IMG/VR virus record: IMGVR_UViG_2687453454_000003
Coordinates: 1,823 to 65,822 of that record
Reading direction: 5' to 3' (one strand)
Origin: a virus
Lineage: Duplodnaviria; Heunggongvirae; Uroviricota; Caudoviricetes
DNA: 64,000 nucleotides
The position numbers and the translations under genes are program-made. Below, in pieces: positions 1,701 to 62,632 of this stretch. A model generated the notes under the pieces. It saw nothing but the letters and a program-made list of their open reading frames with translations. It made no database searches and was not told where the DNA came from. The stretch's first letter is position 1, and each line of letters begins with the position of its first letter.

Positions 1701-1849
1701 AGCGTCAATTATGCGGTTATATCGCTTTCCTGCTGCCTCAATGAATTTTTGTTGCCCTTTAGTCGCAGATTCATAAAGCTGTTTATCAGAAATGCCACCC
1801 AGACCATCGCTAAATGTTCTGACTAAATTTTCTCGTGCTTGTTGTTGAT

Positions 1850-4248: not shown

Positions 4249-4925
4249 TAGAATCCAAGCCCCCCAACAAGACCAATAAGCCCACCACCAATAGCCCCGG
4301 CGACATTACCTATACCCGGAACAACGGAACCAAGTTGCGCACCCGCTAAAGCGCCTGATGCCGCCCCACCAATACCACGCGCAAGACTGGATGGCTGCTG
4401 CGCCTGACCTGCACGAATAGCGCCAAGCCCCTGCAAGAGTTGCCCGGTATTATTGGCGTAGTTTTGCCCTGCTGTTGCCTGCCCTGATGCCGCATTCATC
4501 CCGACATTTAGCAGGTTTCCATAATTTTGCATTTGCCCACTGAGCCAATTGTTATAAAGCATGGGCGCAATGGAAGATAACTGGTTACTGGTAGCTGTTG
4601 AGCCAAGCCCCCCGGTAGCTTCTGCTGAGACAAGGTTCTGATAACGGGCCTGATCTGCCTGTGTTTTATATAAACCAGAACCAAAGAAATCATTCGCGGC
4701 TTTATTCTGCCCTTCCAGAGTCATCAGTCCTTGCAGTTGTTGTAAAGCAGGCAATCCGACTTCTGCATACGGCTTGAGATTATTCATCACCGTATTCCAC
4801 TGCTCGCGCTGCAAATCAATTGCCTGCTGCTGGGCCTTCGCCTGAGCTTTAGAGGCACCACCATCACCGCCTTTTTCGTATACGGCACGATTGAGATGTT
4901 TATGAGCTATATGGGTAATTAACAT
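4248..4925 (-). CDS. hypothetical protein (225 aa) with glycine-zipper C-terminal tail
   Basis: ORF track; C-terminus GIGGAASGALAGAQLGSVVPGIGNVAGAIGGGLIGLVGGLGF; overlaps upstream gene by 7 nt. Confidence 0.5.
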   Translation of the reverse strand: MLITHIAHKHLNRAVYEKGGDGGASKAQAKAQQQAIDLQREQWNTVMNNLKPYAEVGLPALQQLQGLMTLEGQNKAANDFFGSGLYKTQADQARYQNLVSAEATGGLGSTATSNQLSSIAPMLYNNWLSGQMQNYGNLLNVGMNAASGQATAGQNYANNTGQLLQGLGAIRAGQAQQPSSLARGIGGAASGALAGAQLGSVVPGIGNVAGAIGGGLIGLVGGLGF

Positions 4926-5380
4926 TCGCTGAATTCCTTATATTGTTGCCGAGTTAACTGATAAAGCGTTACGCCGACGGGTTTACCACATCTGATATAA
5001 GCATCATCAAGGTGACCAACACGGGTAGCGCCAAGCAAACGGATAATTGCCCGTCCATATTTCGTGGTGTCAGGAACCATAGTGATGCTGTTAAGGAATG
5101 GTGAGTTTTCGAGAAGCCATTTGCAGAATAATCGATGCCCTTGCAGTGCATATTCACCACGGAATCCGGGGTCGTACACCGCATGGCATTCAACAACGCT
5201 ATGCCAGAAGTTACGCACTTCATGAACGCCAGCCAGCACTAATCCTTCGTAGATGCCGAGATATACCGCATCAGGCTTGATGTAGTACGTGTGCCCCGGC
5301 TCAACAATATTTTCGGTATTGCCTGGCTCGTTAAGAAAGGCCTGTAATCGCACAGGGTTATCAATAAATTTTAGTTCCAT
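4919..5380 (-). CDS. hypothetical protein (153 aa)
   Basis: ORF track; first large gene of the 5380-to-723 operon; no family recognised. Confidence 0.45.
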   Translation of the reverse strand: MELKFIDNPVRLQAFLNEPGNTENIVEPGHTYYIKPDAVYLGIYEGLVLAGVHEVRNFWHSVVECHAVYDPGFRGEYALQGHRLFCKWLLENSPFLNSITMVPDTTKYGRAIIRLLGATRVGHLDDAYIRCGKPVGVTLYQLTRQQYKEFSEC

Positions 5381-6142: not shown

Positions 6143-8902
6143 TCATTCTTCAGATGAGTTATAATCTCCTGGCTGGTAATTGAGTACATAAACGTTTATT
6201 TGTCGTCCCTGAATACGTGGTGATTTTCTTTGGTATCCACGACCGCTGTTTGGTGGGGTTAGCATCCCGGCTTTTTTCAACACTTCAGCAAACTGTTTTG
6301 CGTTGAAACCACATGCGATCTCCTTTTCAAATGTGGCCGGGAATGTGTAGAAAATCATTGGGCTTTCGTCATGTTCTCCACGCTGACGGTATCCGGCTAA
6401 ATCTTTGATGGGCAAATCTGCCGGGCTGTATGGAAATGGTGCAAAACGGCTAAGCCCATAGGCATTAAGAAATGCCTCCGTTTGTTCAATAATCTGCTGA
6501 TGTTCTTTGTTACCTGTGCCGAACTCGCGCAACCATGCGTTATAGCTGTGCTGTATCGCATCACGGCATGTCTGAGCATCCCAGCCTGTTACAACCTCGC
6601 CTAACAGCAATGCGGCCTCCAGAATGGCAAATCGCGCGGCTACACGGTGAACCTGCTCACCATAATCGGATGGGATCAGGTTTCTCCATCTGCTTTCGCA
6701 ATCACGAACGGTTTTAATAGCCTGTTGCTGGTGGTCTGCCAGCCATTTAATCCACTCACGCCCGGCTGCGCCGTGGTGATGCTGGTAAGCGTCTTTCAGT
6801 GCGTCTGCGTGCTGTTTTCCGTTCTGGTAATCGTGAAAGCGTACTGCTTTACTCAACGGAATATTCAGCAGTCGCACCAGTTGCCCGGCTTTGGTTTTTC
6901 GCCCGGAAGTAGCGATAAATGTTTCTAAATCCATTTCTCCGGTGCTGATTGCCACTGTACGCCAGCGTTTTAGATCCCGGTTTCCACCATCTTTAGCGCC
7001 TTGCAGTTTCCCTACACCGTTAAATAACGCATAGGCAGACTGTGAAACGCTGACAGGATCAGCGCCCTGACCAACTTCATCAAGCGGCATTAGTCCGTCA
7101 TTGTGGGCGGCGGCCTCATTTGCCAGCCCCAGCGCGGTTCCGTACCACGTCAGCCGCAGTAAATCAGGGTTGCCGTATAAGCTGCTCGCCACGTTTGCCG
7201 TGGTGGTCTTACCTGCGCTCGACTGCTCATAGAAATGAATGCCGAACCCGTCAGCGCCCACCAGCCCAATCAATGGCGCTGCCAGTGCTGCGCCGATCCC
7301 GGTCATCATTGAATAGTTACCAAAGGCCAGACGCGCCACGTTATCACGCCAGCTTTTCGCGCTCCCTGAGACGGTATATCCGGCTGCGGCTGAGCTTCTC
7401 CCGCTGAACAGCACAGGATTTTCAGGTGTTCCGATGATTTCCCCATCAGGCATGATGTACGCTCCGCATTGCCATCCAGTGGCATGAGCAACACGCCACA
7501 ATTCACGAGAGCCACTGCGTTGTAGCCAGTCTGCCAGTATTGCTCTGAGGCTGCTTTTGGTCGTGACATTTACCCCACCAGCTTTAAGTGTGCGCCATCC
7601 TTCACGTTCACCAATATCAGCCAGTGGAATGGCAGCGGTTGTCGGCGTTTCAGAACCAAACGACAGCCAGCGAAGAATGAGATACTGGTCTTTATCGTCT
7701 CTGCCAGTACCGATAACGCTTAACGGAGAACATAACCAGCTTTCGTTATTGATGATTTCTCCACTCTGGCTGTCAGCTCTCGGAGATACCCAATAAATAC
7801 CATCCTCGCGGCTTTCTATTCTTGGTTTCAGTGGGTCGGTATCCATAACCTTAAAATCGCTTCCCTCAATGGTCTGTGGCTCCTGTTTCACGCCATTACC
7901 CTGTGGTTGGTACATTGACTTATTGAACGCTTCTGTGGCGCATTTAATGCCGTGTTTTTGGTGGTAATCATTCCAGTCTGCTTTGTGATCTGTCGGGGGT
8001 AATGCCACCCATCCAGAAACAGATAAAGCTGCTTTTTCTGCTGCTATTCTCCCCGTGTTTTGTCTTCCTTCGCTGTGGTCGTTATCCGCAGCAATGATGA
8101 TTTGTGCTGAAGGAAATTTATCCCGCAGTACCTGGGCGACATATAACAGGTTCCCGGCATCAATCGCCGCCACTGTCAGCGCCTCTGGACGAATTAAATG
8201 GGCAGATAATGCCGTTGCCAGCCCTTCTGCGATTAAGATGCTCTGTGTTGTTTCTGGCGCGTTTATGGCGTGATATGCCCCCCGCTTTGCTGAACCTGTC
8301 AGGAGTCTTTTTTCACCATGTGATGTAATAGTCTGTGCTGCTGTGACTGCGCCGGATTTATCCACCAGCGCCAGCAACAGAGATCCATCGGGCAACACGG
8401 GGAATGTAAAATCACCTACCCCTTTCGCAACCAGATAATCAGATTTGCCGTTTACAGCCTTTCTGCGCATGTCATCAAACTGACGGGAAAACGTATCCCG
8501 TCTTTGTTGTTCGTCCTTCTCTGCCCTTTTCAGGCGCTCCTGTTCGCGTCGCTGGCGCTCGGTTTCCAGTTGTTCCCGTTTCTGGCTGGTGGCTTCTGGT
8601 GTTTCCGTTGTCCGGTAATCAATACCCAGAACATCAGCGGCAAGAAGCGCCGCCTCTGTTGTGTCGCAGTTATTTACGCGTTTAATTAAATCCAGCCCAT
8701 CACCAGCGCCGCACTGATTACAGATGAAGCTACCGCGCCCGTTGTCATCGAACCGGAATCGATCTTTGCCCCCACATGCAGGGCAGGGAGCATGACGGCG
8801 CGGAGAGTCAGGGACATTTATGTTCAGGCAGCCCAGCACATGAGGCCAGTTGTTTTCAGACGCACTGATAACCTGACGGATAAGATCAATGTTTCGCATC
8901 AC
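6143..8902 (-). CDS. P4 alpha-like primase-helicase (zinc-binding primase + D5/P-loop helicase domain)
   Basis: N-terminal Cys cluster PCPACGG...CNQCG (zinc-binding primase type), Toprim-like acidic region (IIIAADNDHSEG), C-terminal P-loop YEQSSAGKTT; 919 aa. Confidence 0.8.
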   Translation of the reverse strand: MMRNIDLIRQVISASENNWPHVLGCLNINVPDSPRRHAPCPACGGKDRFRFDDNGRGSFICNQCGAGDGLDLIKRVNNCDTTEAALLAADVLGIDYRTTETPEATSQKREQLETERQRREQERLKRAEKDEQQRRDTFSRQFDDMRRKAVNGKSDYLVAKGVGDFTFPVLPDGSLLLALVDKSGAVTAAQTITSHGEKRLLTGSAKRGAYHAINAPETTQSILIAEGLATALSAHLIRPEALTVAAIDAGNLLYVAQVLRDKFPSAQIIIAADNDHSEGRQNTGRIAAEKAALSVSGWVALPPTDHKADWNDYHQKHGIKCATEAFNKSMYQPQGNGVKQEPQTIEGSDFKVMDTDPLKPRIESREDGIYWVSPRADSQSGEIINNESWLCSPLSVIGTGRDDKDQYLILRWLSFGSETPTTAAIPLADIGEREGWRTLKAGGVNVTTKSSLRAILADWLQRSGSRELWRVAHATGWQCGAYIMPDGEIIGTPENPVLFSGRSSAAAGYTVSGSAKSWRDNVARLAFGNYSMMTGIGAALAAPLIGLVGADGFGIHFYEQSSAGKTTTANVASSLYGNPDLLRLTWYGTALGLANEAAAHNDGLMPLDEVGQGADPVSVSQSAYALFNGVGKLQGAKDGGNRDLKRWRTVAISTGEMDLETFIATSGRKTKAGQLVRLLNIPLSKAVRFHDYQNGKQHADALKDAYQHHHGAAGREWIKWLADHQQQAIKTVRDCESRWRNLIPSDYGEQVHRVAARFAILEAALLLGEVVTGWDAQTCRDAIQHSYNAWLREFGTGNKEHQQIIEQTEAFLNAYGLSRFAPFPYSPADLPIKDLAGYRQRGEHDESPMIFYTFPATFEKEIACGFNAKQFAEVLKKAGMLTPPNSGRGYQRKSPRIQGRQINVYVLNYQPGDYNSSEE

Positions 8903-9257
8903 CGTACCCCATGTGGTCTATAGCGTTTGCGATATGGCTAACCAGCATCTGCCACTTGGTTATTCCGTAATCAGTCAGCATGCCATCATTGTTTAGCCAC
9001 ATATCAAATTCAGCGGTTGTCGCAAGTTTCCACTTATCGCCGTGGACAGTCCTCATTGCTGGGTACATGAATGCGCAAATCAGATCACAAACATCTGACG
9101 GCTTCAGAGATGTAGTAATGGTGCGTCCCTCTGGCGTCTGAATTGCCATTTTCTCTTCACCAGTAGAATGAAGGTTATGAATCCACACAGCACCAGCAAT
9201 CTTTGCCACCTGCTCTCCGATTGCGGAGCTAAGCGCCATTTCTGCATTTTCACGCAT
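8886..9257 (-). CDS. hypothetical small protein
   Basis: ORF track; part of tightly packed co-directional array with overlapping start/stop codons; start uncertain. Confidence 0.35.
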   Translation of the reverse strand: MRENAEMALSSAIGEQVAKIAGAVWIHNLHSTGEEKMAIQTPEGRTITTSLKPSDVCDLICAFMYPAMRTVHGDKWKLATTAEFDMWLNNDGMLTDYGITKWQMLVSHIANAIDHMGYGDAKH

Positions 9258-9591
9258 GAGAACCTCCCGCTACAGTTGCGCCCATGTCATTAACCATGCT
9301 TTGCCATATCTCACGCCCGACGTCAGTCAATCCGTCCTTAGTGACGCAACGCTCAAGAAGCTCGATCCCCACGGTTTCCCACTGCGGGTAGAACACTTTC
9401 ATGGCTGCCAGTGTGTAGCTATCGATCAGGCTGCGAACGCCTTTTACTCCATTAACGATTTCCACACGTACGGCCTCGCCGTCCGCATCAACCATGAAAT
9501 AGTCCCCGCCGCTGGTGGAGGTAATGTGGTTATACAGTGCCGACGCATACTTATTTGCCAGCGCATTCAGTCGGAAATTTTTAGTAATCAT
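9250..9591 (-). CDS. hypothetical small protein
   Basis: ORF track; coupled to neighbours. Confidence 0.35.
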   Translation of the reverse strand: MITKNFRLNALANKYASALYNHITSTSGGDYFMVDADGEAVRVEIVNGVKGVRSLIDSYTLAAMKVFYPQWETVGIELLERCVTKDGLTDVGREIWQSMVNDMGATVAGGSHA

Positions 9592-9601
9592 GGCTCCATC
9601 C

Positions 9602-10204
9602 TCAGTGCGTCACTGGTTCCGCTGGCATGCCGTTTTCATTCAGTTCAGCTATAAAGCTGTTGTGAAGTTCAGCAAGCGTTTCACGACCAAATGGAGTCAG
9701 TGCTCCTTGTTCCACATCCATCATGGCTCTGTAGAAAATGATGGCGCGTTCTGTGCCAGACTCGATGCCAAAACGTTCTATCATCGCTCCCTCAATGTTG
9801 TTTGCCATAGCGAGGCGCTCTGCTACTGGATACAGCGGCATGGCGACGATGCCGTTGGAATAAACAGCCACTTCGGAAGGATTGCCAGTATCATCAATGA
9901 TGCTGACAGTGCCGTTTTCCTCTCTCATTTCCAGCATGAATACTGTTGCGATCAGCCATCTCCACATAATGACGTTATGCTGTGATGTGTAATCGAAATA
10001 TCCCTGGTTGCCGCCATCGGCAATAGCGAGATGTATTGACATACCTTCATCTGGTTTATCGTCATAATCCCCGGCATCCAGACGATTTACGGCATCAATA
10101 TATGAGACGGCCTCAACGCGTTCTGTCATGCCATCGTTGCTGCGGTACATGATGTTTACGCCGTCAGGCGTTGCTTCTGTATGGAAAGTTAAGAAATTAT
10201 TCAT
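9602..10204 (-). CDS. hypothetical protein (200 aa; start refined to internal Met MNNFLTF)
   Basis: ATG at 10202-10204 preceded by GAGG-like SD; the ORF-track start at 10309 would overlap the upstream gene by about 100 nt. Confidence 0.4.
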   Translation of the reverse strand: MNNFLTFHTEATPDGVNIMYRSNDGMTERVEAVSYIDAVNRLDAGDYDDKPDEGMSIHLAIADGGNQGYFDYTSQHNVIMWRWLIATVFMLEMREENGTVSIIDDTGNPSEVAVYSNGIVAMPLYPVAERLAMANNIEGAMIERFGIESGTERAIIFYRAMMDVEQGALTPFGRETLAELHNSFIAELNENGMPAEPVTH

Positions 10205-10418
10205 GTTTCGCCTCGCCTGAATGATTCTGTAACTCATATTTGCCCAACAATTCGTCCGCTTCCTGAATAGCTTCTGGTACGCCATTGAGCAGTGACATAA
10301 CCGCGCCAATCATTAACTTGTCTCTGTTGCTGGGGCTGGCCCCTTCAAGCCAGAACCCTAAAACAGTCTGAACCTGTTCGATGCGACATTGCGCTTCAAT
10401 GAGCTGGATGTTGGTCAT
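10197..10418 (-). CDS. hypothetical small protein (73 aa)
   Basis: ORF track; overlaps neighbours by a few nt. Confidence 0.35.
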   Translation of the reverse strand: MTNIQLIEAQCRIEQVQTVLGFWLEGASPSNRDKLMIGAVMSLLNGVPEAIQEADELLGKYELQNHSGEAKHE

Positions 10419-10678
10419 TTCGCACTCTCCACATCGATTAAACCGATATCTATCAGGGAGGTAACTTTTTGTAGCCAGCTATTGATTACTGTCGCCTGTT
10501 CCCCGCCCACCGAGGGAACAATCTCATTCATCACATGAACCAGACCTGTGCGCGCTCTGGTAAGCCGTTCAGTCGCGCAATCTGCGGGAGTGAATGTGTC
10601 TGGATATGGCTCTTCACGCCCCAGCAATGATTCAATTTCCAGCTCACACGGATGACGATAAATTAAGTTGATATTCAT
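10415..10678 (-). CDS. hypothetical small protein (87 aa)
   Basis: ORF track; ATGA-type overlaps at both ends. Confidence 0.35.
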   Translation of the reverse strand: MNINLIYRHPCELEIESLLGREEPYPDTFTPADCATERLTRARTGLVHVMNEIVPSVGGEQATVINSWLQKVTSLIDIGLIDVESAK

Positions 10679-10926
10679 TTTTCACCCCCAAGAATTACCA
10701 GCTCGGCACGGGCATCGTTAACCAAAGATGAGCACGCTTTAATCGCATCCACGACATCAGTAGCGTCCATTTCTTCAGCCGAAAGACTGACAGCAACCAG
10801 GACAGCCGCTGCTTGCTCGATTAATTGAAGTGCGGACGTAAGGCGAGGGGTATTAATTGAGTTATTCATTGGTTGCCCCCGTTTTTCCTGGCATTTCGCC
10901 ACCTTCCAGCAGGAAATGAACGTCAC
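10675..10926 (-). CDS. hypothetical small protein
   Basis: ORF track; true start may be the internal Met near 10867. Confidence 0.3.
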   Translation of the reverse strand: MTFISCWKVAKCQEKRGQPMNNSINTPRLTSALQLIEQAAAVLVAVSLSAEEMDATDVVDAIKACSSLVNDARAELVILGGEK

Positions 10927-11080
10927 GAACGGCGAGATCCAATATCGCGAGTAACGCCTTCAGTCTTTCGTCTCGTGAGGGAGAGTTGCTCACCAGAATG
11001 TCGTTAATCACTTCTGTCAGTGTGATGATCTGGCTTGTGCGTTCGAGGGGATCCATATGCACATCGTAGGTTTTAATCAT
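10862..11080 (-). CDS. hypothetical small protein (72 aa; C-terminal part of the 355-aa track ORF)
   Basis: ATG at 11078-11080 preceded by GGAGGTGG SD (RC of 11084-11091); the region upstream of it within the track ORF looks low-complexity. Confidence 0.35.
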   Translation of the reverse strand: MIKTYDVHMDPLERTSQIITLTEVINDILVSNSPSRDERLKALLAILDLAVRDVHFLLEGGEMPGKTGATNE

Positions 11081-11922
11081 GTGCCACCTCCATGCGGATA
11101 CGACCAGCAAAAAAGCAGATGTGATCGCGCACCAGAGAACGGCGAGCATCGCGTTCAGACTCGGCAGCAATATGATGAATTTTGGCGGTAATTGTCGGGC
11201 AATCGCGGCGAACTGCGGCGATAATCCAGATAAATTGCGGTTTTTGGGTAGGGGTAGTAGCCAGCATGTGGCAGCCTCCTTGTACTGGGAGTTCTTCCCA
11301 CCACCGGAGCTGCGAAACTCGCTGGTGGTGGACTGAACAGAGTTCGCAGTACCGGCGTACAAGGAAACCGGCCAGCCTTTCGGCTGCCCTGTCCAGCCCA
11401 CCATAATTTTGCAAGCGACGCGGATTATAACCGCATCACTGAAAAAAGTGTGAGTCTGGCTAACGGCACAAAAAAAGACGCTCGGCGCGTCATGTGTCGC
11501 CTCGTACATTTCCGGGCTGCGAAACCCGGCACCCGTTTTATGAGGTGCCTTATAACCATAAACCGTGTTGCCGCATAACGGCAAGCTCTTTTTTATGGAC
11601 TCCGAAAACTCACTATTGGAAGCACCAGATGCACAATACATCGCGCTCATTTCGTTAACGTCGCGCGTGTGGACGAAGGTTTTTGTGGAGTCACTACGCG
11701 AGCAGAGAAAGCCATCTACGACCAGAAATTCTCTGGCGCAGCCGCCGACCTTCTCAACGCTAACACCATCGACCGTAATTTCTGACATAGTTAAGGCATC
11801 CGCTCCCACCACCAGAAAATGATAAACTTTGCTTGTATCTGCTGTATTAATGCCAGACTTTGCTGTCATATTGCTGGATTTTGGCGACATACCAGCCAGT
11901 GAAAATATCTTCTTCTGGACGG

Positions 11923-12192
11923 TTAGCATTTGTTAACCTCCGCGAACTCCTTCATGAAGCGCGCCAGCGGTTGTACGCATGGCGATTGATACCCGTCGCG
12001 ATAAAACGTCACTCGGTTGTGAGACACGCTTTCGACAGTAACGAGTGCTCCGTGGGCATCCTTGTAGCGTTTTTGAGGTTGTGGTGTTCCTGTCGGCTTA
12101 AACATGGACCACCTCCAGACGCTTAGCGAGCCAGCGTTGCGACAGGCGGGTGAGTTCTCCTTTGCGCTGCTCATATTCCATGCCCATATCAA
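11923..12192 (-). CDS. hypothetical small protein (start uncertain)
   Basis: ORF track; overlaps the antirepressor-like gene, so the real start is probably an internal Met. Confidence 0.3.
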   Translation of the reverse strand: MIWAWNMSSAKENSPACRNAGSLSVWRWSMFKPTGTPQPQKRYKDAHGALVTVESVSHNRVTFYRDGYQSPCVQPLARFMKEFAEVNKC

Positions 12193-12931
12193 TTAACGTG
12201 ATATTGGTGCTTTCGAGATATGAGAGGTGCTCAAGTTGTTCTGCGTTCATATGGTCGCGAGGTTCGCCAGAATAGCCATTTATCCGCGCCCACTGCTTAG
12301 CAGTTAGCCCACCAAGAACGATACGAGAAATCATATTGCTCTCGTTTGTGTAGTGGTGTTGCTGCGTCGTTTTCCCCTGCTCGGCACGGGCCATATTCAG
12401 CGCATCGCACATTGGCTTAAAGTTGTTTGCGGCACTGATACGGGCTTTTAGCTGGCGACGATAGCGGGCGGCGATTTCAGGAACGCTACGCTGTAATTCT
12501 TCCTCGCACTGGATGAAATAACGGCGGATAGCGCGACCCTGATCATTGCGTTCGATCATTGCCAGTTCTTTCGCCATTCCGACACTTAACAGATAGTCTT
12601 TGCCGGGTCTGCCAGACTGCTTAATCTTTCTGTAAGCCGCGCCATTCGGGCTTTTCCCCAAATTTGGGGAAATAGTTTTATGGACTGAGTAATCGTGCCC
12701 AATGGTGAAGTCATATTCAGAGATGCGATCAGTGATCCATGTAGAGAAGTCTTTTCCCACGCCCAACGCTTTGTGTAACGCTTTTGCGCTAACAATATTG
12801 GTTTCACGCCCACCGATATGACCAGGAATAACCGGGACAATTGCGGCAAATTCATTACCGTTAATTGTGCTCAGAGAGGCGTTCAGATGAGGGGCGGCCT
12901 CAGAAATTAATCTGCTTTTTTCGATGTTCAT
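12098..12931 (-). CDS. phage antirepressor-like protein (Ant/KilAC-type C-terminal region)
   Basis: Segment YLLSVGMAKELAMIERNDQGRAIRRYFIQCEEEL recalls the AntA/KilAC antirepressor family; position downstream of AlpA. Confidence 0.45.
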   Translation of the reverse strand: MNIEKSRLISEAAPHLNASLSTINGNEFAAIVPVIPGHIGGRETNIVSAKALHKALGVGKDFSTWITDRISEYDFTIGHDYSVHKTISPNLGKSPNGAAYRKIKQSGRPGKDYLLSVGMAKELAMIERNDQGRAIRRYFIQCEEELQRSVPEIAARYRRQLKARISAANNFKPMCDALNMARAEQGKTTQQHHYTNESNMISRIVLGGLTAKQWARINGYSGEPRDHMNAEQLEHLSYLESTNITLIDMGMEYEQRKGELTRLSQRWLAKRLEVVHV

Positions 12932-12943
12932 TTTCAGTCTCCG

Positions 12944-13375
12944 TTAAGCGGCGTTAAACGCGTCCGGGTAGAGTTTCAGAATGTCGGCAATTTCCTGCTG
13001 AGAAAGTCCGTTGTGATCATTTATGTTCGCAAGATGGTTAATATGAGTGATCACTTTCAGAACATCACCACGGCAGGAGAAACGGTAGCGAAGGTGTGTT
13101 CCGATACCATCAGGATTCTTTTCGTCGATACGCTCCAGAGTGATTCCAAGCTGGCGTTCTAACTCTGTTGCATAGTTACGACCAGAAGACAGACGGCAGT
13201 AGCGAAGAATGTCATTTTCTGTCCATCCCTCTATACCAGTACGCAGCATATAGACTCTGGCACGATGCTTTTTCGGTGTGCGCTTTGGTGCTTGAAGGGA
13301 TTTTGTAAGGGGCGTAACATCAGATACGCGAATATCTGAATTAGCCGCCTGTAATGGGCGGTTTTTCTTATTCAT
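12944..13375 (-). CDS. hypothetical protein (143 aa)
   Basis: ORF track; start overlaps the AlpA stop (13375). Confidence 0.4.
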   Translation of the reverse strand: MNKKNRPLQAANSDIRVSDVTPLTKSLQAPKRTPKKHRARVYMLRTGIEGWTENDILRYCRLSSGRNYATELERQLGITLERIDEKNPDGIGTHLRYRFSCRGDVLKVITHINHLANINDHNGLSQQEIADILKLYPDAFNAA

Positions 13376-13572
13376 TACGCTACCTCGCCACGCGACTCAG
13401 CGATGCGCTGATTAATCCATTCTTCAATTTCACTTTCAATAAACGCAATTGATCGGCTTCCAATCTTTACAGATTGAGGGAATCGCTGTTCTTTGATGAG
13501 CCGATAAATCCACGCTTTGCTGTAACCAGTACGGCGTTGAACCTCAGAAAGACGAATAAATGATTGAGACAT
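13375..13572 (-). CDS. alpA: AlpA-family transcriptional regulator / excisionase-like HTH protein
   Basis: 65 aa; HTH IRLSEVQRRTGYSKAWIYRLIKEQRFPQ typical of the AlpA (prophage CP4-57 regulator) family; located near the integrase. Confidence 0.7.
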   Translation of the reverse strand: MSQSFIRLSEVQRRTGYSKAWIYRLIKEQRFPQSVKIGSRSIAFIESEIEEWINQRIAESRGEVA

Positions 13573-13769
13573 GTTTACTCCTATATTCTGTCATCTTCTT
13601 TAATGGACATCAGTAGACAGAAAGGAGATTAAACAAACCGGTGAATGGGTGATAGCGGATAAAAATAAAATATTTTTTTGAGAAGATTATCCGCTTTGAA
13701 ATACACAGTAGCGTATTCAAAGCGGAAATCGCGAAATTTACTTAAAACGTTTATGTAGGATTTTGCTTG

Positions 13770-14651
13770 CTATAAATCTCTACTCATTAAATCAGATATT
13801 TTTATCAAGCTCATTTCTCTGTCTTTGTTTACATAAAGCTGAAGCAAGCGGGTGTATCTCTCGCTTATAGATTCAAGTGCAAAAGGCTTTATTGATTCCT
13901 TAATAGCCTGCGTATCTTTCGGATCATCACTAAAAACCAAGGCAGAAATCATCGGATTGCTCACTTCCTTACCTGACTTCTCACCCCAAATCAGCAGATC
14001 AACAATAGGTATCACTCTATTAGATATCAACTTCTGAAGGGTCTTTAATCCAATCCTTTTCTGAGCGACATGCTCTCTCTCTGGTACTTTTAACTCTTTT
14101 CGCCATAGAGGTAGAAGGTGAGTCAGGCTGGTAATAATTTCGTCATCAGTGGCGTCATCTAAATCTATAGAAACGAGTATGATGTTAGGGGAACAATTAC
14201 TTAGGTTTCCAGTAACACTCGCAAGCATAGCGTTTGCCTTGAGGTAGCAATCCTCTTCGTCTCTTTTAAAAAAGCCTTGATCTATCGATGAGAAAGAGTA
14301 CATGGCCAGCTCTGAAAATGTTACTGGACTAACCCCCATAGCTGAAGATAATGAGGGAAGATCATCGTACTCATTTCTTAATGATGGGGCTTCATCATTT
14401 ACTTTGCGAATAAATTCTTCGACCTCTTCCTCTTCTTCATTGAGAATGGTTAGGTTAGGATCGCCCGAAAAAATCCTTTCATATTTTATATCGTACTCTT
14501 CTTTGAATATAGCAGTGTCATCTTTTGCATGACGCAATAAAAAATCGCGCCACTCTAATTCTTGAATCAAGTCCGGCAAGGTTAAATCATTTAAAAATTC
14601 ATAATTACTAATATCAAACCATGCTAAATCTTGTTTTTTGGCTCTCACCAT
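13770..14651 (-). CDS. hypothetical protein (293 aa), AT-rich int-proximal cargo gene
   Basis: ORF track; clearly lower GC than flanking int and alpA; acidic stretch EEEEEVEEF; occupies the int-to-alpA slot. Confidence 0.45.
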   Translation of the reverse strand: MVRAKKQDLAWFDISNYEFLNDLTLPDLIQELEWRDFLLRHAKDDTAIFKEEYDIKYERIFSGDPNLTILNEEEEEVEEFIRKVNDEAPSLRNEYDDLPSLSSAMGVSPVTFSELAMYSFSSIDQGFFKRDEEDCYLKANAMLASVTGNLSNCSPNIILVSIDLDDATDDEIITSLTHLLPLWRKELKVPEREHVAQKRIGLKTLQKLISNRVIPIVDLLIWGEKSGKEVSNPMISALVFSDDPKDTQAIKESIKPFALESISERYTRLLQLYVNKDREMSLIKISDLMSRDL

Positions 14652-14793
14652 ACGCCACCCCGCGCCCCTAATTCTGACGGCTATGCCAGCCCGTAGGGGT
14701 GTACGGGTTTTCGGGGATCAGCCTAGACATAGCCTATTCTTTGTTCGTCTACATAAGTCTACTACCATTGCTTAACACGGTCTATTCATACAG

Positions 14794-16008
14794 TTAAGCT
14801 CGTTTCCCAAACGAACCATGAACAACGTTCTCCTCCTTCTCCAGCGCATCCATATAGTCGGCATACCATTGAAGCATCTCCCGCCTTCCATCCAGATATT
14901 GCGCATGGTTGTATGTGCCACGAATTGAGTTCTTATCAACGTGAGCGAGCTGCGTTTCTATCCACGCGGTGTTATAGCCCTGCTCATGCAAAATCGTGCT
15001 CATAGTGTGCCGGAACCCATGACCAGTTACACGTCCAGCGTAGCCAATGCGCTTAAACACTTGGTTTATGCTGGCCTCACTCATTGTTTTCCTTGGATCA
15101 TTGCGCCCGGGAAACATAAGAGGGTAATTGCCTGTTATTTCTCTAATCTTCCCAATAAGCGAAAGAGCCTGATCAGACAATGGCACAATATGAGGCCGCC
15201 GCATTTTCATACGTGAAGCGGGTATCTCCCAGATAGCCTTGTTGAAATCAATTTCATCCCATAATGCGCCACGTAGTTCGCCAGTCCGCAAGCCGGTGAT
15301 AATCAGTAGACGAGCCGCCATAACAACCAATGCGCTTCCTGAGTAACTGGACAATGCCTTGAAAAAATCAGGTAATTCTTTAGCTGTAAGGAAAGGGTAA
15401 TGATTAGATTCATGGCCTTGCATCGCGCTAGTAAGGTCTGGTGCAGGGTTATACTCTGCGCGACCAGTGACTATTGCATAGCGGAAAACTTCCCCGCACC
15501 GCTGCCTCACTTTTTTGGCTTTTTCTGTAGCACCGCGCCCCTCGATGCGCCGCAGCACATTCAGAAGTTCAAGTGGTTTGATTTCGGCGATTGGTTTTTT
15601 GCCAATGTAAGGGAACACATCTTTGTTGAAGGCTTCGAGGATGTCTGAAGCATAACCAGCAGACCATTTTTTTAATTTGCTGCTGTGCCACTCAAGGGCA
15701 ATATCTTTGAAGGTGTTGTTTAACTGCGTTTCCCGGGCAATCTTTTCCTCTCGTTTCGCTTCCATCGGATCGATACCACCAGCGATACCTCTTTTCGCAT
15801 CTTCACGTTTTGCCCGAGCATCGGCTAGAGTAACCTCAGGATACACACCTAGTGCCAATAGCTTCTCTTTACCAGCTACACGATATTTAAGTCGCCAGTA
15901 TTTACCTCCATTAGGTTTTACCAAGAGATACAAACCGCCACCATCGGCCAGCTTGTAAGCCTTCTCTTTTGGCTTGGCTGTGTCTATTTGACGGGCATTG
16001 AGTTTCAC
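14794..16008 (-). CDS. int: tyrosine integrase, P4-type
   Basis: 404 aa; N-terminal arm-binding-like region (GGGLYLLVKPNGGKYWRLKYR), C-terminal catalytic region HGFRHT...YNHAQYL; start 166 bp from att repeat. Confidence 0.9.
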   Translation of the reverse strand: MKLNARQIDTAKPKEKAYKLADGGGLYLLVKPNGGKYWRLKYRVAGKEKLLALGVYPEVTLADARAKREDAKRGIAGGIDPMEAKREEKIARETQLNNTFKDIALEWHSSKLKKWSAGYASDILEAFNKDVFPYIGKKPIAEIKPLELLNVLRRIEGRGATEKAKKVRQRCGEVFRYAIVTGRAEYNPAPDLTSAMQGHESNHYPFLTAKELPDFFKALSSYSGSALVVMAARLLIITGLRTGELRGALWDEIDFNKAIWEIPASRMKMRRPHIVPLSDQALSLIGKIREITGNYPLMFPGRNDPRKTMSEASINQVFKRIGYAGRVTGHGFRHTMSTILHEQGYNTAWIETQLAHVDKNSIRGTYNHAQYLDGRREMLQWYADYMDALEKEENVVHGSFGKRA

Positions 16009-16173
16009 TTGGGGGTACCTCCACTAAACCGAACAGCAAATACCCCCATAAGTACCCCCATCTGACCGTAGATTTTGAGGGACTTTAGTAGACGTCAAAA
16101 GACGAACGGGGCTTTAATACACGGATTATAAGGGGTTTTGAAAGACTTTAGTAGACTTGGGGAGATGTTTGAA

Positions 16174-16219
16174 TGGTGCCGATAATAGGAGTCGAACCTA
16201 CGACCTTCGCATTACGAAT
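16174..16219. repeat. att site: 46-bp perfect direct repeat of the tRNA-Thr 3' end (attR of prophage A; tRNA-proximal att of element B)
   Basis: tggtgccgataataggagtcgaacctacgaccttcgcattacgaat is identical at 16174-16219 and 62557-62602; identity ends where the intact tRNA continues. Confidence 0.9.
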
Positions 16220-16642: not shown

Positions 16643-19600
16643 TTATTTACTGTTTATCAATTGCAATAATGGGATCTCAGCTACATCACTAGGAATATAG
16701 GGGTCATCTTCTTTTAAATTAACCCCAATACAATCAACATCATTTAACCCAATTTCCCAAGCCCACCTAACATCTAACGTACTCATTTCTATCCCTAAAC
16801 TATCTCTTTGTGGATGCTCAGGAACAATATTTTTTAACATCGCATCACATCCAAGATAGAATTTTCCACAGGCCTGATACGCAGCAAGAAATCTTTCTAA
16901 ATTGACGTTACTATCAGGAGTCATCGTATTAATTCTACTGATCATTGTCATTCTTTTAGTTAATGGCGTTGTCATCATATTTTCAGATATCAGCACTCTA
17001 TAATGATTTGGGTTTTTAACTGAAATACCCTTGACAATACAAACCCGTAATCTGGCTTTACTATCTACCAAGCCTACTGATGATATAAGATCTTTAAAAA
17101 TATCCTCACCTATATTGGGGTGTTTAAATAATAGATATAACCCTGGATAACACGATTTTAATTGAGCGAAGCCTACTCCTTGCCAGCGTGTTCTATCCCA
17201 TAGACGAGGCTTGATTAGACTTTGTATTGAATAATCTTTATGCGTTATATTTTCGGAATTAAGTTCCTCTTCAGGCATTATTCCTTTACCAGGTGTTGGA
17301 ACATTTACATCCTCGATCTCCAACACTTTCGGAAATTCACTATCCCAGGGTTTATCTCTTAAAAGAGGGTAAGTTTTCTTTTCAGCACTGGTGGAATAAA
17401 TTTTCTTAATTTGTTGATCAATATCATTTCCAAGAACATTTTCAATAGCTTTGATACAGGCACCGAAACTAATTGCTCTGTCAAATGCAGCATCTTCGAA
17501 TATCATTCTTTCAATGTATTCTGTATTTTTTGTAAAAAATAACTCAGGGAGAAGATCAAATACTATTTTCTTGAATTCATTAGTAATTTTTTGTTGAGCA
17601 TCGACTCTAAATGAACTTGTTTCAAAACCATTGCAATTTATAGTAAGGTTTAGTTTTCCATTATTGCTATTTATTTCATGTGATAAGGAGAAGTCATCTT
17701 CATCATCTGCTATTACTTCAATAATTAAAAATGCTTCTTTCAGATGGATGTTATCAATCGTACAAGTTGCAAAAGCACTCTCTAAAAGCGCTAAGATACT
17801 AGTTGAAAACTCTATAAATGGTGACCGATTCGGAAAGTTAATTTCTATAGTGCATCCAAAAATAAAAGATGTATATATTCCTCGTTTATCATAGTTATCT
17901 TTTATTCCTTTACTATTGAATCCAGCATCAAAGTCACGTATTTCTTGCAAGAAATCATTATGATCTTTATCGGCAGTAACTTCATACTCATGTTCAAAAT
18001 TTTCAATATAACCTAAAGCATATTTAAGACATCCAGATGATACAAAAAGACCTAATCTATCGAGTTCATCGGGAATATTACTCTGTCGATTTATTCCATT
18101 TAGGTCAGTGTTCAAAATGAGTTGACTTATGTAAAAATCAACTTGCTGATTTTCTTTATCGCCGAACGAACTTTCACTGATATTTTGGTTAATTATTAAA
18201 AACAGTTCATACCATAAAAGAGCATGTGCTAATTTCCCTAGTTTTATTTCTGCCAGGCATAAACTATAATAAATCTCAGCCTGCTTTAATGATATCTCAT
18301 CATACTTCCAGTAGTTATCTGTAATCAAAGAAGCGGATAGAAGCAAGCATGAACGTGAACTCCATAGCAACCCAATGGATTCGTAAGCATAAGCAATAGC
18401 TTTTAATGCTAATATAAATTTATCTCGTGATTCCTCTTTATAGAGTGGTATAAATGATTTTCCTAAATACTTGATTGCCTGATAAGGGTGACCATTTTGA
18501 ATCCTCTTTATACCTCTTCGTAGATTTAATAATGCCCCTTTAACTTCACCACCTCTAACAGCAGATTGCTCAGTCATATAGTCTAATAAATTTTCATATG
18601 CATCTACCTCGAAAAAAATGTCATCCAGTTCGTTCAAAAGTTGGAAGTTCTTCTCAAAGGAATAGCCTATTAAATTCCCACTATTTTTAAAAATTTCATG
18701 TAACTCTTCAAATACAACCGAAGCATCTTCTACATCTGAAAACGTTGTCAATTTATAAATAGCTTTGTGAGTTCTCGCTGTGAGTGCATTACTGGGACGT
18801 GATTCATCGTCAGCTATCTCATCTAGTTTAGCAAGCATGTTACGTTCAATATTCTCAATATCGATTGTAGATGTTGCGTTGTTAAGTCTAATATAACTTT
18901 TATGAACGGTTACTAAATTTAAAACTTTCTCCCATTTTGAGGAATTAGTTGATGATGCAATACTTTCATATGCAAATTGAAGATTTTCTTCAAAGAGATT
19001 AAAATCTTCCATCCAAAAATGAGACTTCCAGGCATATTGATAATACGCATCTAGCAATTGTTGATTAGTCCCGAATTTCTTTGATATTTTTATAGCTCTT
19101 TCAAATAGACCTTGTGTTTCAATTAGTGGTTTCTCAAGTTCAGCGCTTAACTCTGCAATTTCTAAAAAAATATCCACCTGTTCATATGAAATTTCAGCAG
19201 GGTTTATTTTCTCTCTAATATACTCGGTTAACTCTTCATATTTTTTATGCTTTTTATAATCATTTTCTCCAAAAATAACTTCTCTTTTATATTGCGTTGG
19301 AACTGACAATGAATCAATGGCCAATTGCTCAAAATTATTTTTGTAAATTTGATCTAATAGCCAATTAATATCTAATATACGAACATCTATTCCAGTTTTT
19401 GTTTTTAGTGTATCCTCAACCTCTGAACGAATATTGGACTTTGCAGACTGGTTCGTTACGCAAAATACTTTAGCATACCCACGTTCTGTTTCTTTTATCT
19501 TAAGTACATCTTCATGGCATTTTTTCTTCCAGTCTTTACGTGTACTTACCGCAAAGGCCCAGCGTTCTCTATTTGATGCTTCATTAACGCCTTCGAACCA

Positions 19601-19894
19601 AAGAAGCTTATTCTGTTCTGAAACAGGGAATGTTTGTGTGTCAGTTTTACCATCCCCCCCTGCTACAGGGCCAGTTTGTTCAAGGAGATTAGGGCAAATT
19701 ATTTTTTCACATATTTTTTTTGCAAAATCTTCGAATTGTAGTTCTTGATTTCTTGTATTTAGCGTAGAGAGGAAGTGTTCCAGTACAACTCTGTCTAAAG
19801 TACCAGTCTCTCTGATTGTTGAATCAGAAAATTTTTCAGGGCGACGGCGCCTTAGAAATTCTTTAGATGAAAATTTGGTTTTCTGTACATTCAT
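16643..19894 (-). CDS. large hypothetical protein (1083 aa), AT-rich cargo; N-terminal domain of unknown type, central TPR-like helical repeats, C-terminal domain
   Basis: ORF track; ATG at 19894 preceded by AGAGGAG SD; much lower GC than the tail genes; no P-loop, HKD or HEPN motif found by eye; helical-repeat-like segments (AYYQYAWKSHFW, ALKAIAYAYESIGLLW, EIYYSLCLAEIKLGKLAHALLWY). Confidence 0.6.
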   Translation of the reverse strand: MNVQKTKFSSKEFLRRRRPEKFSDSTIRETGTLDRVVLEHFLSTLNTRNQELQFEDFAKKICEKIICPNLLEQTGPVAGGDGKTDTQTFPVSEQNKLLWFEGVNEASNRERWAFAVSTRKDWKKKCHEDVLKIKETERGYAKVFCVTNQSAKSNIRSEVEDTLKTKTGIDVRILDINWLLDQIYKNNFEQLAIDSLSVPTQYKREVIFGENDYKKHKKYEELTEYIREKINPAEISYEQVDIFLEIAELSAELEKPLIETQGLFERAIKISKKFGTNQQLLDAYYQYAWKSHFWMEDFNLFEENLQFAYESIASSTNSSKWEKVLNLVTVHKSYIRLNNATSTIDIENIERNMLAKLDEIADDESRPSNALTARTHKAIYKLTTFSDVEDASVVFEELHEIFKNSGNLIGYSFEKNFQLLNELDDIFFEVDAYENLLDYMTEQSAVRGGEVKGALLNLRRGIKRIQNGHPYQAIKYLGKSFIPLYKEESRDKFILALKAIAYAYESIGLLWSSRSCLLLSASLITDNYWKYDEISLKQAEIYYSLCLAEIKLGKLAHALLWYELFLIINQNISESSFGDKENQQVDFYISQLILNTDLNGINRQSNIPDELDRLGLFVSSGCLKYALGYIENFEHEYEVTADKDHNDFLQEIRDFDAGFNSKGIKDNYDKRGIYTSFIFGCTIEINFPNRSPFIEFSTSILALLESAFATCTIDNIHLKEAFLIIEVIADDEDDFSLSHEINSNNGKLNLTINCNGFETSSFRVDAQQKITNEFKKIVFDLLPELFFTKNTEYIERMIFEDAAFDRAISFGACIKAIENVLGNDIDQQIKKIYSTSAEKKTYPLLRDKPWDSEFPKVLEIEDVNVPTPGKGIMPEEELNSENITHKDYSIQSLIKPRLWDRTRWQGVGFAQLKSCYPGLYLLFKHPNIGEDIFKDLISSVGLVDSKARLRVCIVKGISVKNPNHYRVLISENMMTTPLTKRMTMISRINTMTPDSNVNLERFLAAYQACGKFYLGCDAMLKNIVPEHPQRDSLGIEMSTLDVRWAWEIGLNDVDCIGVNLKEDDPYIPSDVAEIPLLQLINSK

Positions 19895-20526: not shown

Positions 20527-21111
20527 TTACTCCATTACAGGGACAGCAGGCCACTCAATATCCGGTGCTACTGATGTATCAACACGGTTCAGCAATACCC
20601 GATACTTTTTCCAGGCTGCCAGCAACGAGATTTCTTCCTCCGTTGCGATTTCCAGATCTACAGCATCCTGAAGTGGCGCAATATGCTCACTGGCTACCTG
20701 CATCAGGCTGTTTTTTGTTTCTTCCGCCTCCCGGATCCGGAACAGTTTTTCTGCTTCTGCATCTTTCACCCAGGCTGTGCCGTTCCACTTCTGAAACTCC
20801 CCTTCCGGCGATAACCAGGTAACATTTTCCGGTAACGGACCGAGTTCAGAAATAAATAACTCGTCTCCTGACGCTACGTCATAAACCGTTTTACCCCGAT
20901 GGTCTTCAACGAGATGCCACGATGCCTCATCACTGTTGAAAACAGCCACAAAGCCAGCAGGAATATCTGGTGGTGCAATATCGGTACTGTTTGCTGGCAG
21001 ACCTGTATGAGGCGGAATATATGCATCACCTTCACCAATAAATTCATTAGTTCCGGCCAGCAGATTATAAATTGTTATGGTCCGTGGTTGTTCACTCATT
21101 CTGAATGCCAT
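20527..21111 (-). CDS. tfa: tail fiber assembly protein
   Basis: 194 aa immediately downstream of the side tail fiber gene with overlapping stop/start; Tfa-like size and context. Confidence 0.75.
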
Positions 21112-62556: not shown

Positions 62557-62632
62557 TGGTGCCGATAATAGGAGTCGAACCTACGACCTTCGCATTACGA
62601 ATGCGCTGCTCTACCAACTGAGCTATATCGGC
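62557..62632 (-). tRNA. thrW: tRNA-Thr (anticodon CGU), thrW-type; its 3' 46 nt form the attachment-site core
   Basis: RC reads GCCGATATAGCTCAGTTGGTAGAGCAGCGCATTCGTAATGCGAAGGTCGTAGGTTCGACTCCTATTATCGGCACCA: 7-bp acceptor stem, D-loop, anticodon loop uuCGUaa, T-loop GGTTCGACTCC, 3' CCA. Confidence 0.95.

What the first reader, a model, noticed from the sequence alone, without database searches (positions are those of the whole stretch)
13573..14793. Int-proximal AT-rich ORF in the P4/CP4-57-like element (variable-cargo position)
A 293-aa ORF (13770-14651) sits between the P4-type integrase and alpA, with clearly lower GC than both neighbours and about 200-bp and 140-bp non-coding flanks. In P4-like satellites the int-adjacent region is a known hotspot for diverse anti-phage genes, so this is a candidate single-gene defence or regulatory cargo. 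No motif was recognised.
Basis: partly seen in the sequence, partly recalled or inferred. Interest (0 to 1): 0.55.

Follow-up and report, generated by a model that had tools for sequence, protein, structure and literature searches.

The report
DUF6387 gene in integrase–alpA slot
The ORF is a real gene of the uncharacterised DUF6387 family in a phage-satellite island of E. coli; across many mobile elements this family always sits just upstream of the excision regulator alpA, so it looks like part of the island's integrase/AlpA control module rather than random defence cargo, but its function is untested.

Summary
A 293-aa ORF lies at 13770-14651 on the minus strand. Its GC is 0.38, against 0.48 for int and 0.43 for alpA, and its flanks are 142 and 197 bp.

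The protein is a full-length Pfam DUF6387 member, named as such in RefSeq. Neither flank is featureless:
- The int-side flank holds the Rfam int-alpA RNA (14666-14733), which ends 14 nt before the ATG.
- The alpA-side flank holds a strong terminator-like hairpin.

The host element is an EcCIMP1-like phage-inducible chromosomal island at a copy of the thrW att site, not a P4 satellite.

The slot varies in E. coli. It is empty in most sister islands and holds unrelated genes in other lineages. Yet DUF6387 lay directly upstream of alpA in all 18 informative contexts, down to 23% identity, and a published table scores it present in 52 of 55 EARL/ROD21-like islands. It diverges much faster than int or alpA. 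Its confident model has no match among solved structures, and it matches no defence-system profile.

Best reading (about 0.4): an integrase-coupled accessory or gating factor of excision, like the iolg/icg genes of PICMI satellites. Main rival (about 0.25): a single-gene defence.

The parts
16175..16217 (-). att copy. These 43 nt are identical to the 3' end of tRNA-Thr (thrW) and contain the EcCIMP1 core TCCTATTATC. They mark the int-proximal boundary of the island.
   Evidence: One search finds an exact match to the genuine thrW at 62558-62600, with 0 matches in 100 shuffles. The core sequence is from PMC11773190.
14794..16008 (-). P4-type tyrosine integrase, 404 aa.
   Evidence: One search finds the Pfam domains Arm-DNA-bind_3, Phage_int_M and Phage_integrase. 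The C-terminal tail ENVVHGSFGKRA is shared with other DUF6387-carrying islands and differs in empty-slot islands.
14666..14733 (-). int-alpA RNA motif (Rfam RF02996), a three-stem structure that ends 14 nt before the DUF6387 ATG. It is probably a 5' leader of the slot gene.
   Evidence: One search gives 46.7 bits (gathering score 35.8). The same motif lies 14-18 nt upstream of the slot gene in L005, L006, L007, L013, L015, L017 and L028, and also in L011, where the slot gene is unrelated. Five of the 8 pairs in the closing stem change on both sides and stay paired.
13770..14651 (-). DUF6387-family protein gene: 293 aa, pI 4.6, soluble, mostly alpha-helical.
   Evidence: RefSeq names the identical protein WP_000251023.1 'DUF6387 family protein'.
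13685..13730 (-). Terminator-like hairpin beginning about 40 nt after the DUF6387 stop codon. It separates the slot gene from alpA.
   Evidence: Inverted repeat I1. One search gives -24.9 kcal/mol, z = -6.8. Hairpins sit at the same place in L002, L009, L013 and L015, and U-runs follow them in L002 and L009.
13375..13572 (-). alpA, 65 aa. AlpA is the excisionase and master activator of Gram-negative PICIs.
   Evidence: PF05930. Its role is described in PMC11773190. This allele is exchanged together with DUF6387.
6143..13375 (-). Rest of the island core within the window: a 143-aa hypothetical gene, AntA antirepressor, DUF4222, the Ash region with C4 antisense RNA (11321-11408) and isrK (11471-11548), small ORFs, and the TOPRIM/DUF927 primase (6143-8902).

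Best explanation
The ORF encodes a DUF6387-family protein. It is the 'integrase-contiguous gene' of an EcCIMP1-like phage-inducible chromosomal island (PICI).

Shown:
- It lies on the same strand as int, 142 bp downstream, behind a conserved structured RNA leader (the int-alpA motif).
- No sigma-70-like promoter was found in that gap.
- A hairpin separates it from alpA.

Inferred mechanism:
- It is read through from int while the island is quiescent, whereas alpA is switched on only by the helper phage.
- The protein works as an accessory or gating subunit of the Int/AlpA recombination-and-induction module. It helps or licenses excision and integration, or sets when alpA fires.
- This is analogous to the iolg/icg genes of PICMI satellites.
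- Its rapid divergence reflects recognition of an external partner, such as a helper-phage, plasmid or host factor.

It is an optional module part, not an essential one.
For: 1. alpA lies immediately downstream on the same strand in 18 of 18 informative contexts, at 100% down to 23% DUF6387 identity. These are: the window; L002, L006, L007, L009, L013, L015, L016, L017, L020, L021, L022, L023, L024, L025, L028, L029; and ICEKp258.2. The Serratia island shows the same adjacency.
2. A published table scores the gene present in 52 of 55 (94.5%) EARL islands, beside the AlpA-type directionality factor at 98%.
3. The gene overlaps int by ATGA in L021 and L043. It lies 16 bp after int in L024.
4. 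In PICMI115, the gene in this same position is constitutively expressed with int, and its deletion abolishes excision and transduction (PMC10803314).
5. Between E. coli islands that share int (dN 0.016), DUF6387 (dN 0.29) and alpA (dN 0.14) diverge together. The exchanged unit therefore includes alpA.
6. The family is essentially absent from phages and plasmids. It was not seen in any other genomic context.
7. No sigma-70-like promoter lies in the int-DUF6387 gap, and a hairpin follows the gene.
8. No defence-family match was found.
Against: - EcCIMP1 itself has the empty-slot variant and still excises and is transduced. About three quarters of E. coli islands with this integrase lack the gene. 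It is therefore not required.
- DUF6387 identity does not track Int or AlpA identity. For L013 against L017, Int is 81%, AlpA 82% and DUF6387 28%. This argues against a tight co-evolving protein complex.
- The protein is acidic (pI 4.6) and has no recognised DNA-binding or enzymatic domain.
- It was not shown that the PICMI115 iolg is a DUF6387 member. That mutant was complemented only with int and iolg together.
- In EARL islands the gene is not next to int while the island is integrated.
- Nothing here is experimental for DUF6387 itself.
Confidence: 0.4

Rival explanations
1. The gene is a stand-alone, single-gene anti-phage or anti-mobile-element defence or exclusion protein, carried as accessory cargo in the 5' hotspot of the PICI. 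It would be expressed in the quiescent state and diversify in an arms race with phages.
For: - PICIs are reported to carry immune systems at their 5' and 3' ends (PMC11364771).
- The gene shows presence/absence polymorphism among near-identical islands.
- Its GC is lower than its neighbours'.
- It is followed by its own terminator-like hairpin.
- It diverges quickly inside a conserved frame.
- It is dispensable for the PICI cycle.
- Other occupants of the slot are unrelated genes.
Against: - No PADLOC match was found for it or for distant relatives.
- It has no nuclease, NTPase, membrane or other effector-like feature.
- It was never seen outside the position upstream of alpA, whereas defence genes usually occur in many kinds of hotspot.
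- Presence in 94.5% of EARL islands is atypical for cargo.
- It has diverged deeply in place, down to 23% identity.
Confidence: 0.25
2. The gene is an establishment or anti-defence factor. It would be an acidic protein made together with integrase just after the element enters a new cell, blunting host restriction or other barriers.
For: - The protein has a net charge of about -20 and a pI of 4.6. Family median pI is 5.15.
- It is co-oriented with int, and in some elements overlaps it.
- It occurs in elements that transfer by transduction and by conjugation alike.
Against: - It shows no similarity to any known anti-restriction protein by sequence or fold.
- A quarter of family members are not acidic.
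- The idea is otherwise purely speculative.
Confidence: 0.1
3. The gene has no current function in the island. It would be a hitch-hiking remnant between int and alpA.
For: It is dispensable in sister islands.
Against: - The reading frame is intact and at least 99% identical in 85 of the 86 E. coli genomes that carry it.
- Strongly conserved motifs persist across 498 clusters at 50% identity.
- The structure model is confident, with pLDDT 93.6.
- A conserved RNA leader and a Shine-Dalgarno sequence precede the gene.
Confidence: 0.05

Closest known systems
iolg/icg genes (integrase-overlapping or integrase-contiguous genes) of PICMI satellites in Vibrionaceae (PMC10803314)
   Same: They occupy the same position: between int and alpA, on the same strand, often overlapping int by ATGA. 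DUF6387 overlaps int this way in L021 and L043. They are constitutively expressed with int while alpA is phage-induced. They fall into many unrelated families of unknown function. Some elements have no gene in the slot.
   Different: Here the gene lies 142 bp after int, behind an RNA leader, and does not overlap it. Whether any of the 13 PICMI IOLG/ICG families is DUF6387 could not be tested. The excision requirement was shown only for PICMI115.
KPNJ2_01894 of ICEKp258.2, and probably SEN1999 of ROD21, in the EARL islands (PMC10763509, PMC3198454)
   Same: RefSeq places the ICEKp258.2 gene in the same Pfam family (DUF6387). It lies directly upstream of the AlpA-type directionality factor and is near-universal in that island family (52 of 55).
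   Different: Those islands are mobilisable by conjugation, not phage satellites. When integrated, the gene sits at the end of the island opposite int. No int-alpA RNA was found upstream in the EARL-type loci scanned (L022, L023). SEN1999 was assigned here only by its size and position.
Stl master repressors of staphylococcal SaPIs
   Same: They lie in a slot next to int and the excision or regulatory genes. They are highly divergent between otherwise similar islands. This fits a role in sensing specific helper-phage proteins.
   Different: Stl proteins have a helix-turn-helix domain and are transcribed divergently. DUF6387 has no recognised DNA-binding domain, is acidic and is co-directional. 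This is a recalled analogy, not a tested relationship.
Immune cargo at the 5' end of PICIs, and the P4 psu-int hotspot
   Same: Both are int-proximal variable positions in a phage satellite.
   Different: There is no match to any catalogued defence protein. The P4 hotspot lies on the cos/psu side of att, in a different kind of satellite.
Rfam RF02996, the int-alpA RNA
   Same: The motif upstream of the gene is a bona fide member: it scores above the gathering threshold and shows covariation.
   Different: Rfam classifies it as an sRNA. In all nine instances seen here it ends 14-18 nt before the start codon of the slot gene, which suggests a cis-acting leader.

Membership tests
Pfam PF19924 (DUF6387) | Whole-protein HMM score above the gathering threshold, covering most of the model | tested here: met
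   132 bits against a cut-off of 28.9, residues 5-269 on model positions 6-256 of 258. All 77 aligned relatives match only this family. RefSeq uses the same name.
Gram-negative PICI (EcCIMP1-like) | int and alpA co-oriented at one end, a primase/replication gene, and no phage structural or lysis module | tested here: met
   Searches show int, alpA, AntA, Ash/Icd and a TOPRIM/DUF927 primase. P22-like ejection-protein genes lie downstream of the primase, as described for EcCIMP1_017-019. The left end of the island runs off the window.
Gram-negative PICI (EcCIMP1-like) | Integration at thrW with core att TCCTATTATC | tested here: met
   the 43-nt copy of the thrW 3' end at 16175-16217 contains the core. 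Sister islands sit directly at thrW, next to proA.
Gram-negative PICI (EcCIMP1-like) | Excision and packaging induced by a helper phage | not testable with these tools
   This has been shown only for EcCIMP1 with phage Kapi1 (PMC11773190).
P4-like satellite | Presence of psu, delta and sid capsid-size genes and a cos site | tested here: not met
   None is annotated in the identical EC26 island, and none appears among the ORFs examined. Only the integrase type, alpA and the C4/isrK RNAs resemble P4 or P1. No dedicated HMM search for psu, sid or delta was run.
iolg/icg class (PICMI) | [quoted passage not shown] | tested here: met
   Here the gene is contiguous, with a 142-bp gap. Homologues overlap int by ATGA in L021 and L043.
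iolg/icg class (PICMI) | Required for excision | not testable with these tools
   Only PICMI115 has been tested. The functional empty-slot island EcCIMP1 argues against a strict requirement here.
Known anti-phage defence systems (PADLOC-DB v2) | Profile match to a catalogued defence protein | tested here: not met
   no hits for this protein or for two distant relatives.
Helix-turn-helix / winged-helix transcription regulators | A recognisable DNA-binding domain by sequence or fold | tested here: inconclusive
Rfam RF02996 (int-alpA RNA) | Covariance-model score above the gathering threshold | tested here: met
   46.7 bits against 35.8. Covariation was seen across seven instances.

The most novel reading that the evidence does not exclude
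DUF6387 proteins, in many islands together with the int-alpA RNA leader, could be the missing input device of AlpA-type satellites and islands. On this reading they are hypervariable sensors with a new fold, made alongside integrase, that recognise a specific helper-phage (or helper-plasmid or host) cue and then license AlpA/Int-driven excision. This would be the Gram-negative functional counterpart of the SaPI repressor Stl.
Probability: 0.15. Interest if true: 0.8.

Novelty: new member of a known kind. Interest (0 to 1): 0.5.

Why it matters
How Gram-negative PICIs and related AlpA-type islands sense their helper and decide to excise is still open. The PICMI authors ask explicitly how the helper activates the early regulon, and how AlpA, integrase and IOLG cooperate.

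DUF6387 is a large family: 498 clusters at 50% identity across Gammaproteobacteria. It is locked to the position upstream of alpA and is near-universal in EARL islands, which include ROD21 of Salmonella and ICEKp258.2 of K. pneumoniae ST258. That makes it a concrete, testable candidate for a missing part of this control module.

The work also suggests that the Rfam 'int-alpA' sRNA is really a leader of the slot gene. If the gene turns out instead to be a defence gene, it would be a new single-gene system with a fold that has no solved relative.

Tried and rejected
No result or no match:
- PADLOC and NCBIfam gave no match.
- PHROGs matched only an unknown-function family.
- A profile search of the PDB by sequence found nothing.

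Tools or sources unavailable:
- The AlphaFold database library was not available.
- Locus scans using the broad alignment A3 failed because it has no sufficiently conserved stretch.
- The genome-contig scan returned only 5 loci.
- The Fillol-Salom 2022 paper on PICI immune cargo is not held. That point rests on its citation in PMC11364771.

Homology tested and rejected:
- DUF6387 is not related to the 293-aa slot gene of CX04.
- It is not related to YfjH of CP4-57.

Tested with a negative or weak result:
- I looked for co-variation of DUF6387 with Int or AlpA and found none.
- The sigma-70 scan found no promoter in either flank.
- dN/dS could not be computed because dS is saturated.
- The TAGTAGAC repeats around int are only marginally above chance.

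Could not be tested:
- I could not obtain any PICMI IOLG sequence. The att-pattern scan of IMG/VR yielded five int-bearing elements. One has a DUF6387 gene overlapping int, two have another gene family overlapping int, and two have nothing in the slot.

Full report
**1. Observation**

On one side is a P4-type tyrosine integrase (14794-16008, minus). On the other is an AlpA-family gene (13375-13572, minus).

GC content is 0.380 for the ORF, 0.476 for int, 0.434 for alpA and 0.492 for AntA. The flanks measure 142 and 197 bp, as stated.

The window comes from E. coli. The 2.8-kb region is 100% identical to strain EC26 and to many O111:H8 genomes. RefSeq names the product WP_000251023.1 'DUF6387 family protein'.

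**2. What the protein is**

- It is a full-length member of Pfam PF19924 (DUF6387): 132 bits against a gathering score of 28.9.
- It also matches an unknown-function PHROG. It matches nothing in PADLOC or NCBIfam.
- Close homologues of 43-92% identity occur across Enterobacterales.
- A profile search of 1.84 billion cluster representatives found 498 clusters. All are single-domain proteins of about 260-330 aa.
- Named members come from Serratia, Erwinia, Gilliamella, Pseudoalteromonas, Thalassotalea, Motiliproteus and Amphritea.
- Conserved motifs include an N-terminal WF.L.NY, then TD.EI..L..LLP.WR, then IP.LDL..W, then FP...K....K.TI.PF. None resembles a known catalytic motif.
- The protein is soluble and acidic, with pI 4.62 and net charge about -20. 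Residues 181-210 form a basic patch.
- An AlphaFold2 model built on a 77-sequence alignment is confident (pLDDT 93.6, pTM 0.86) and mostly helical.

**3. The host element**

A 43-nt exact copy of the 3' end of thrW lies at 16175-16217. The genuine tRNA is at 62557-62632. Two thrW-integrating elements therefore sit in tandem.

The element that carries the ORF has, in order:
- int, DUF6387 and alpA;
- a 143-aa hypothetical gene, the AntA antirepressor and DUF4222;
- an Ash region with C4 antisense RNA and isrK;
- small ORFs and a TOPRIM/DUF927 primase;
- P22-like ejection-protein genes.

This is the architecture, att site (core TCCTATTATC) and gene content of EcCIMP1. EcCIMP1 is an experimentally verified PICI, mobilised by the P22-like phage Kapi1 (PMC11773190). 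No psu, sid or delta genes are annotated. The element is therefore a PICI and not a P4 satellite.

**4. Is the slot variable?**

Within E. coli it is.
- The gene occurs in 86 of 5426 complete genomes. In 85 of them it is at least 99% identical.
- The neighbouring core segment occurs in 612 genomes, and this integrase in 505.
- Sister islands at thrW (KK19-02 and AR_0137) have Int 97% identical and downstream genes 97-98% identical. They have no gene between int and alpA, only a 427-bp gap, and a different alpA allele at 76% identity.
- An evenly spaced sample of hits suggests about one island in four with this integrase carries DUF6387.
- EcCIMP1 has the empty variant, with only a small ORF, and is fully functional.
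- CX04 has another integrase and an unrelated 293-aa gene in the slot.
- CP4-57 of K-12 has the unrelated, oppositely oriented yfjH there.
- In PICMI satellites the same slot holds 'iolg/icg' genes of 13 unrelated families, or nothing.

**5. DUF6387 is not free-floating cargo**

alpA was the next gene on the same strand in every informative context examined:

| Context | DUF6387 identity to window |
|---|---|
| Salmonella | 63% |
| Klebsiella aerogenes-type | 62% |
| L015 | 46% |
| Serratia | 32% |
| L017 | 27% |
| Thalassotalea | 23% |
| L025 (P0150 relative) | distant (E 2e-14 to the family profile; identity not measured) |
| L020, two tandem paralogues | 21-26% |
| 17-kb circular cfPICI-like element of K. 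pneumoniae | 27% |
| Two EARL-type islands | 24-27% |
| E. coli 30COLEC | 70% nucleotide identity over the matched 57% of the gene |
| Mobilisable island at leuX in S. houtenae | 28% |
| Yersinia, Providencia, Yokenella | 46-68% |
| ICEKp258.2 and a Serratia island (literature) | not measured |

Further points:
- In the published conservation table for 55 EARL islands, the DUF6387 gene (KPNJ2_01894) is present in 52, or 94.5%. Integrase is at 100% and the AlpA-type directionality factor at 98%.
- The family is essentially absent from phage genomes and nearly absent from plasmids.

**6. Evolutionary pattern**

Among EcCIMP1-like loci, Int is 61-81% identical and AlpA 68-85%, but DUF6387 only 25-63%. 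For L013 against L017, Int is 81%, AlpA 82% and DUF6387 28%.

Between the window and 30COLEC, int is nearly identical (dN 0.016, dS 0.24). DUF6387 (dN 0.29) and alpA (dN 0.14) are both much more diverged.

The alignment with an empty-slot island breaks inside the last 60 nt of int and resumes at the alpA stop codon.

So the exchangeable unit is int tail, leader, DUF6387, hairpin and alpA together. Inside that unit, DUF6387 is the fast-evolving part, and its variation does not track Int or AlpA. This points to an external partner.

**7. The flanks**

*Int-side flank.*
- This 143-bp spacer is almost invariant in the window, L028, L013 and L017, even though the genes on either side differ widely.
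- It contains Rfam RF02996, the int-alpA RNA, at 14666-14733 on the minus strand (46.7 bits against a gathering score of 35.8).
- The same motif ends 14-18 nt before the start codon of the slot gene in L005, L006, L007, L013, L015, L017 and L028. It does so in CX04 as well, where the slot gene is unrelated (66 bits).
- It is absent from the empty variant, from EARL-type loci and from several other DUF6387 loci.
- Across seven instances, five of the 8 closing-stem pairs change on both sides and stay paired. A GAGG/AAGG Shine-Dalgarno sequence follows the motif.
- Rfam lists the motif as an sRNA. Its fixed register with the start codon suggests a cis-acting leader. This is inference.
- No sigma-70-like promoter was found in this gap. 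In L021 and L043 the gene overlaps int by ATGA. Co-transcription with int is therefore likely.

*alpA-side flank.*
- A hairpin of -24.9 kcal/mol (z = -6.8) begins about 40 nt after the stop codon.
- Hairpins of different sequence sit at the same place in L002, L009, L013 and L015. In L002 and L009 they are followed by U-runs.
- This insulates alpA, which in PICIs is induced by the helper phage.

**8. Mechanism**

*Shown:* a conserved gene preceded by a structured leader, co-oriented with int, separated from alpA by a hairpin, always upstream of alpA, optional in PICIs and near-universal in EARL islands, hypervariable, with a fold that has no solved relative.

*Inferred (confidence about 0.4):* the protein is an accessory or gating factor of the Int/AlpA module. 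It is produced with integrase in the quiescent state. It modulates excision and integration, or the timing of induction, possibly by recognising a helper-derived or host cue.

The nearest experimental precedent is iolg of PICMI115. It is constitutively expressed with int, and its deletion abolishes excision and transduction. The authors propose an Int-IOLG-AlpA excision complex. PIME1 elements likewise carry a second regulator, of the LuxR family, beside alpA that is needed for excision.

*Against this reading:*
- The gene is dispensable in EcCIMP1-type islands.
- It does not co-vary with Int or AlpA.
- It is acidic and has no DNA-binding domain.
- The link to PICMI iolg rests on position only.

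*Main rival (about 0.25):* a single-gene defence or exclusion protein in the 5' accessory region of the PICI. For it: polymorphism, low GC, insulated expression and fast evolution. Against it: exclusive positional linkage, core status in EARL islands, and no defence-like domain.

*Minor rivals:* an anti-defence or establishment factor (0.1), and a functionless remnant (0.05).

**9. Verdict**

In kind, it is a new member of a known class: a DUF6387 family member acting as an integrase-contiguous gene of an AlpA-type satellite. Function is unknown and untested.

Interest is moderate. The obligate DUF6387-alpA pairing, the hypervariability, the unmatched fold and the leader-like behaviour of the int-alpA RNA together make a tractable lead on how these islands are controlled.

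Noticed in passing
window 14666-14733 (-); also L005, L006, L007, L011, L013, L015, L017, L028: Rfam classifies the int-alpA RNA (RF02996) as an sRNA. In all nine instances seen here it ends 14-18 nt before the start codon of whichever gene fills the int-alpA slot, including an unrelated gene in CX04. It looks like a cis-acting 5' leader, and the closing stem shows compensatory changes.
   Followed up: partly
window 16643-19894 (-): A 1083-aa ORF that is very AT-rich (GC about 0.29-0.39) and has no significant match in Pfam, PADLOC, PHROGs or NCBIfam. It lies between the thrW att copy and a truncated integrase of the neighbouring lambdoid prophage. It is a candidate for unknown cargo, possibly defence.
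   Followed up: no
window 11321-11408 (-) and 11471-11548 (-): C4 antisense RNA and the isrK Hfq-binding RNA lie inside the Ash/Icd region of the island. This resembles the P1/P7/P4-type C4-icd-ant immunity circuit, next to the AntA antirepressor gene. The same pair occurs in L005, L010, L011, L013 and L028.
   Followed up: no
window 16175-16217 and 62557-62632: Two elements are arranged in tandem at thrW. About 46 kb of lambdoid prophage and other DNA lies between the genuine tRNA-Thr and a 43-nt exact copy of its 3' end, and the PICI follows that copy.
   Followed up: partly
window 723-5380 (-): P22-like DNA-ejection protein genes and a DUF2824 gene lie downstream of the island's primase. 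They match the genes proposed as packaging-related in EcCIMP1 (EcCIMP1_017-019). In strain EC26 an IS66 element interrupts them.
   Followed up: no
window 14757-14764 (-), 16086-16093 (+), 16149-16156 (+): Three TAGTAGAC octamers bracket the integrase gene. Two lie between att and int, and one lies in inverted orientation just after int, in the conserved spacer. They may be binding sites for Int arm domains or for AlpA. They are only marginally above chance (2 of 100 shuffles).
   Followed up: partly
window 14794-14830 (-); L010, L012, L013, L017, L028: The last 12 residues of Int are ENVVHGSFGKRA (or GKSA) in islands that carry the leader and DUF6387, even where Int is only 63-66% identical overall. 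In empty-slot islands they read GNVVHMVFEKHA. The recombination boundary lies inside the 3' end of int.
   Followed up: partly
L020 1737-3421: Two tandem, overlapping DUF6387 paralogues (263 and 297 aa) lie between an integrase and a 93-aa AlpA in a metagenomic contig.
   Followed up: no
L038 11155-11955 (-), L042 1532-2236 (+): A second family of integrase-overlapping genes (ATGA overlap; 266 and 234 aa), in elements at the att site downstream of fis. Their N-termini look helix-turn-helix-like but have no significant Pfam match.
   Followed up: no
L028 8400-12500: In E. coli 30COLEC the DUF6387-carrying island lies beside P22-like tailspike and glucosyltransferase genes. This suggests integration next to, or within, a P22-like prophage, which could be its helper.
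   Followed up: no
window 20570-20768 (-): A match to the Rfam IS009 RNA (222 bits), near the truncated integrase of the adjacent prophage.
   Followed up: no
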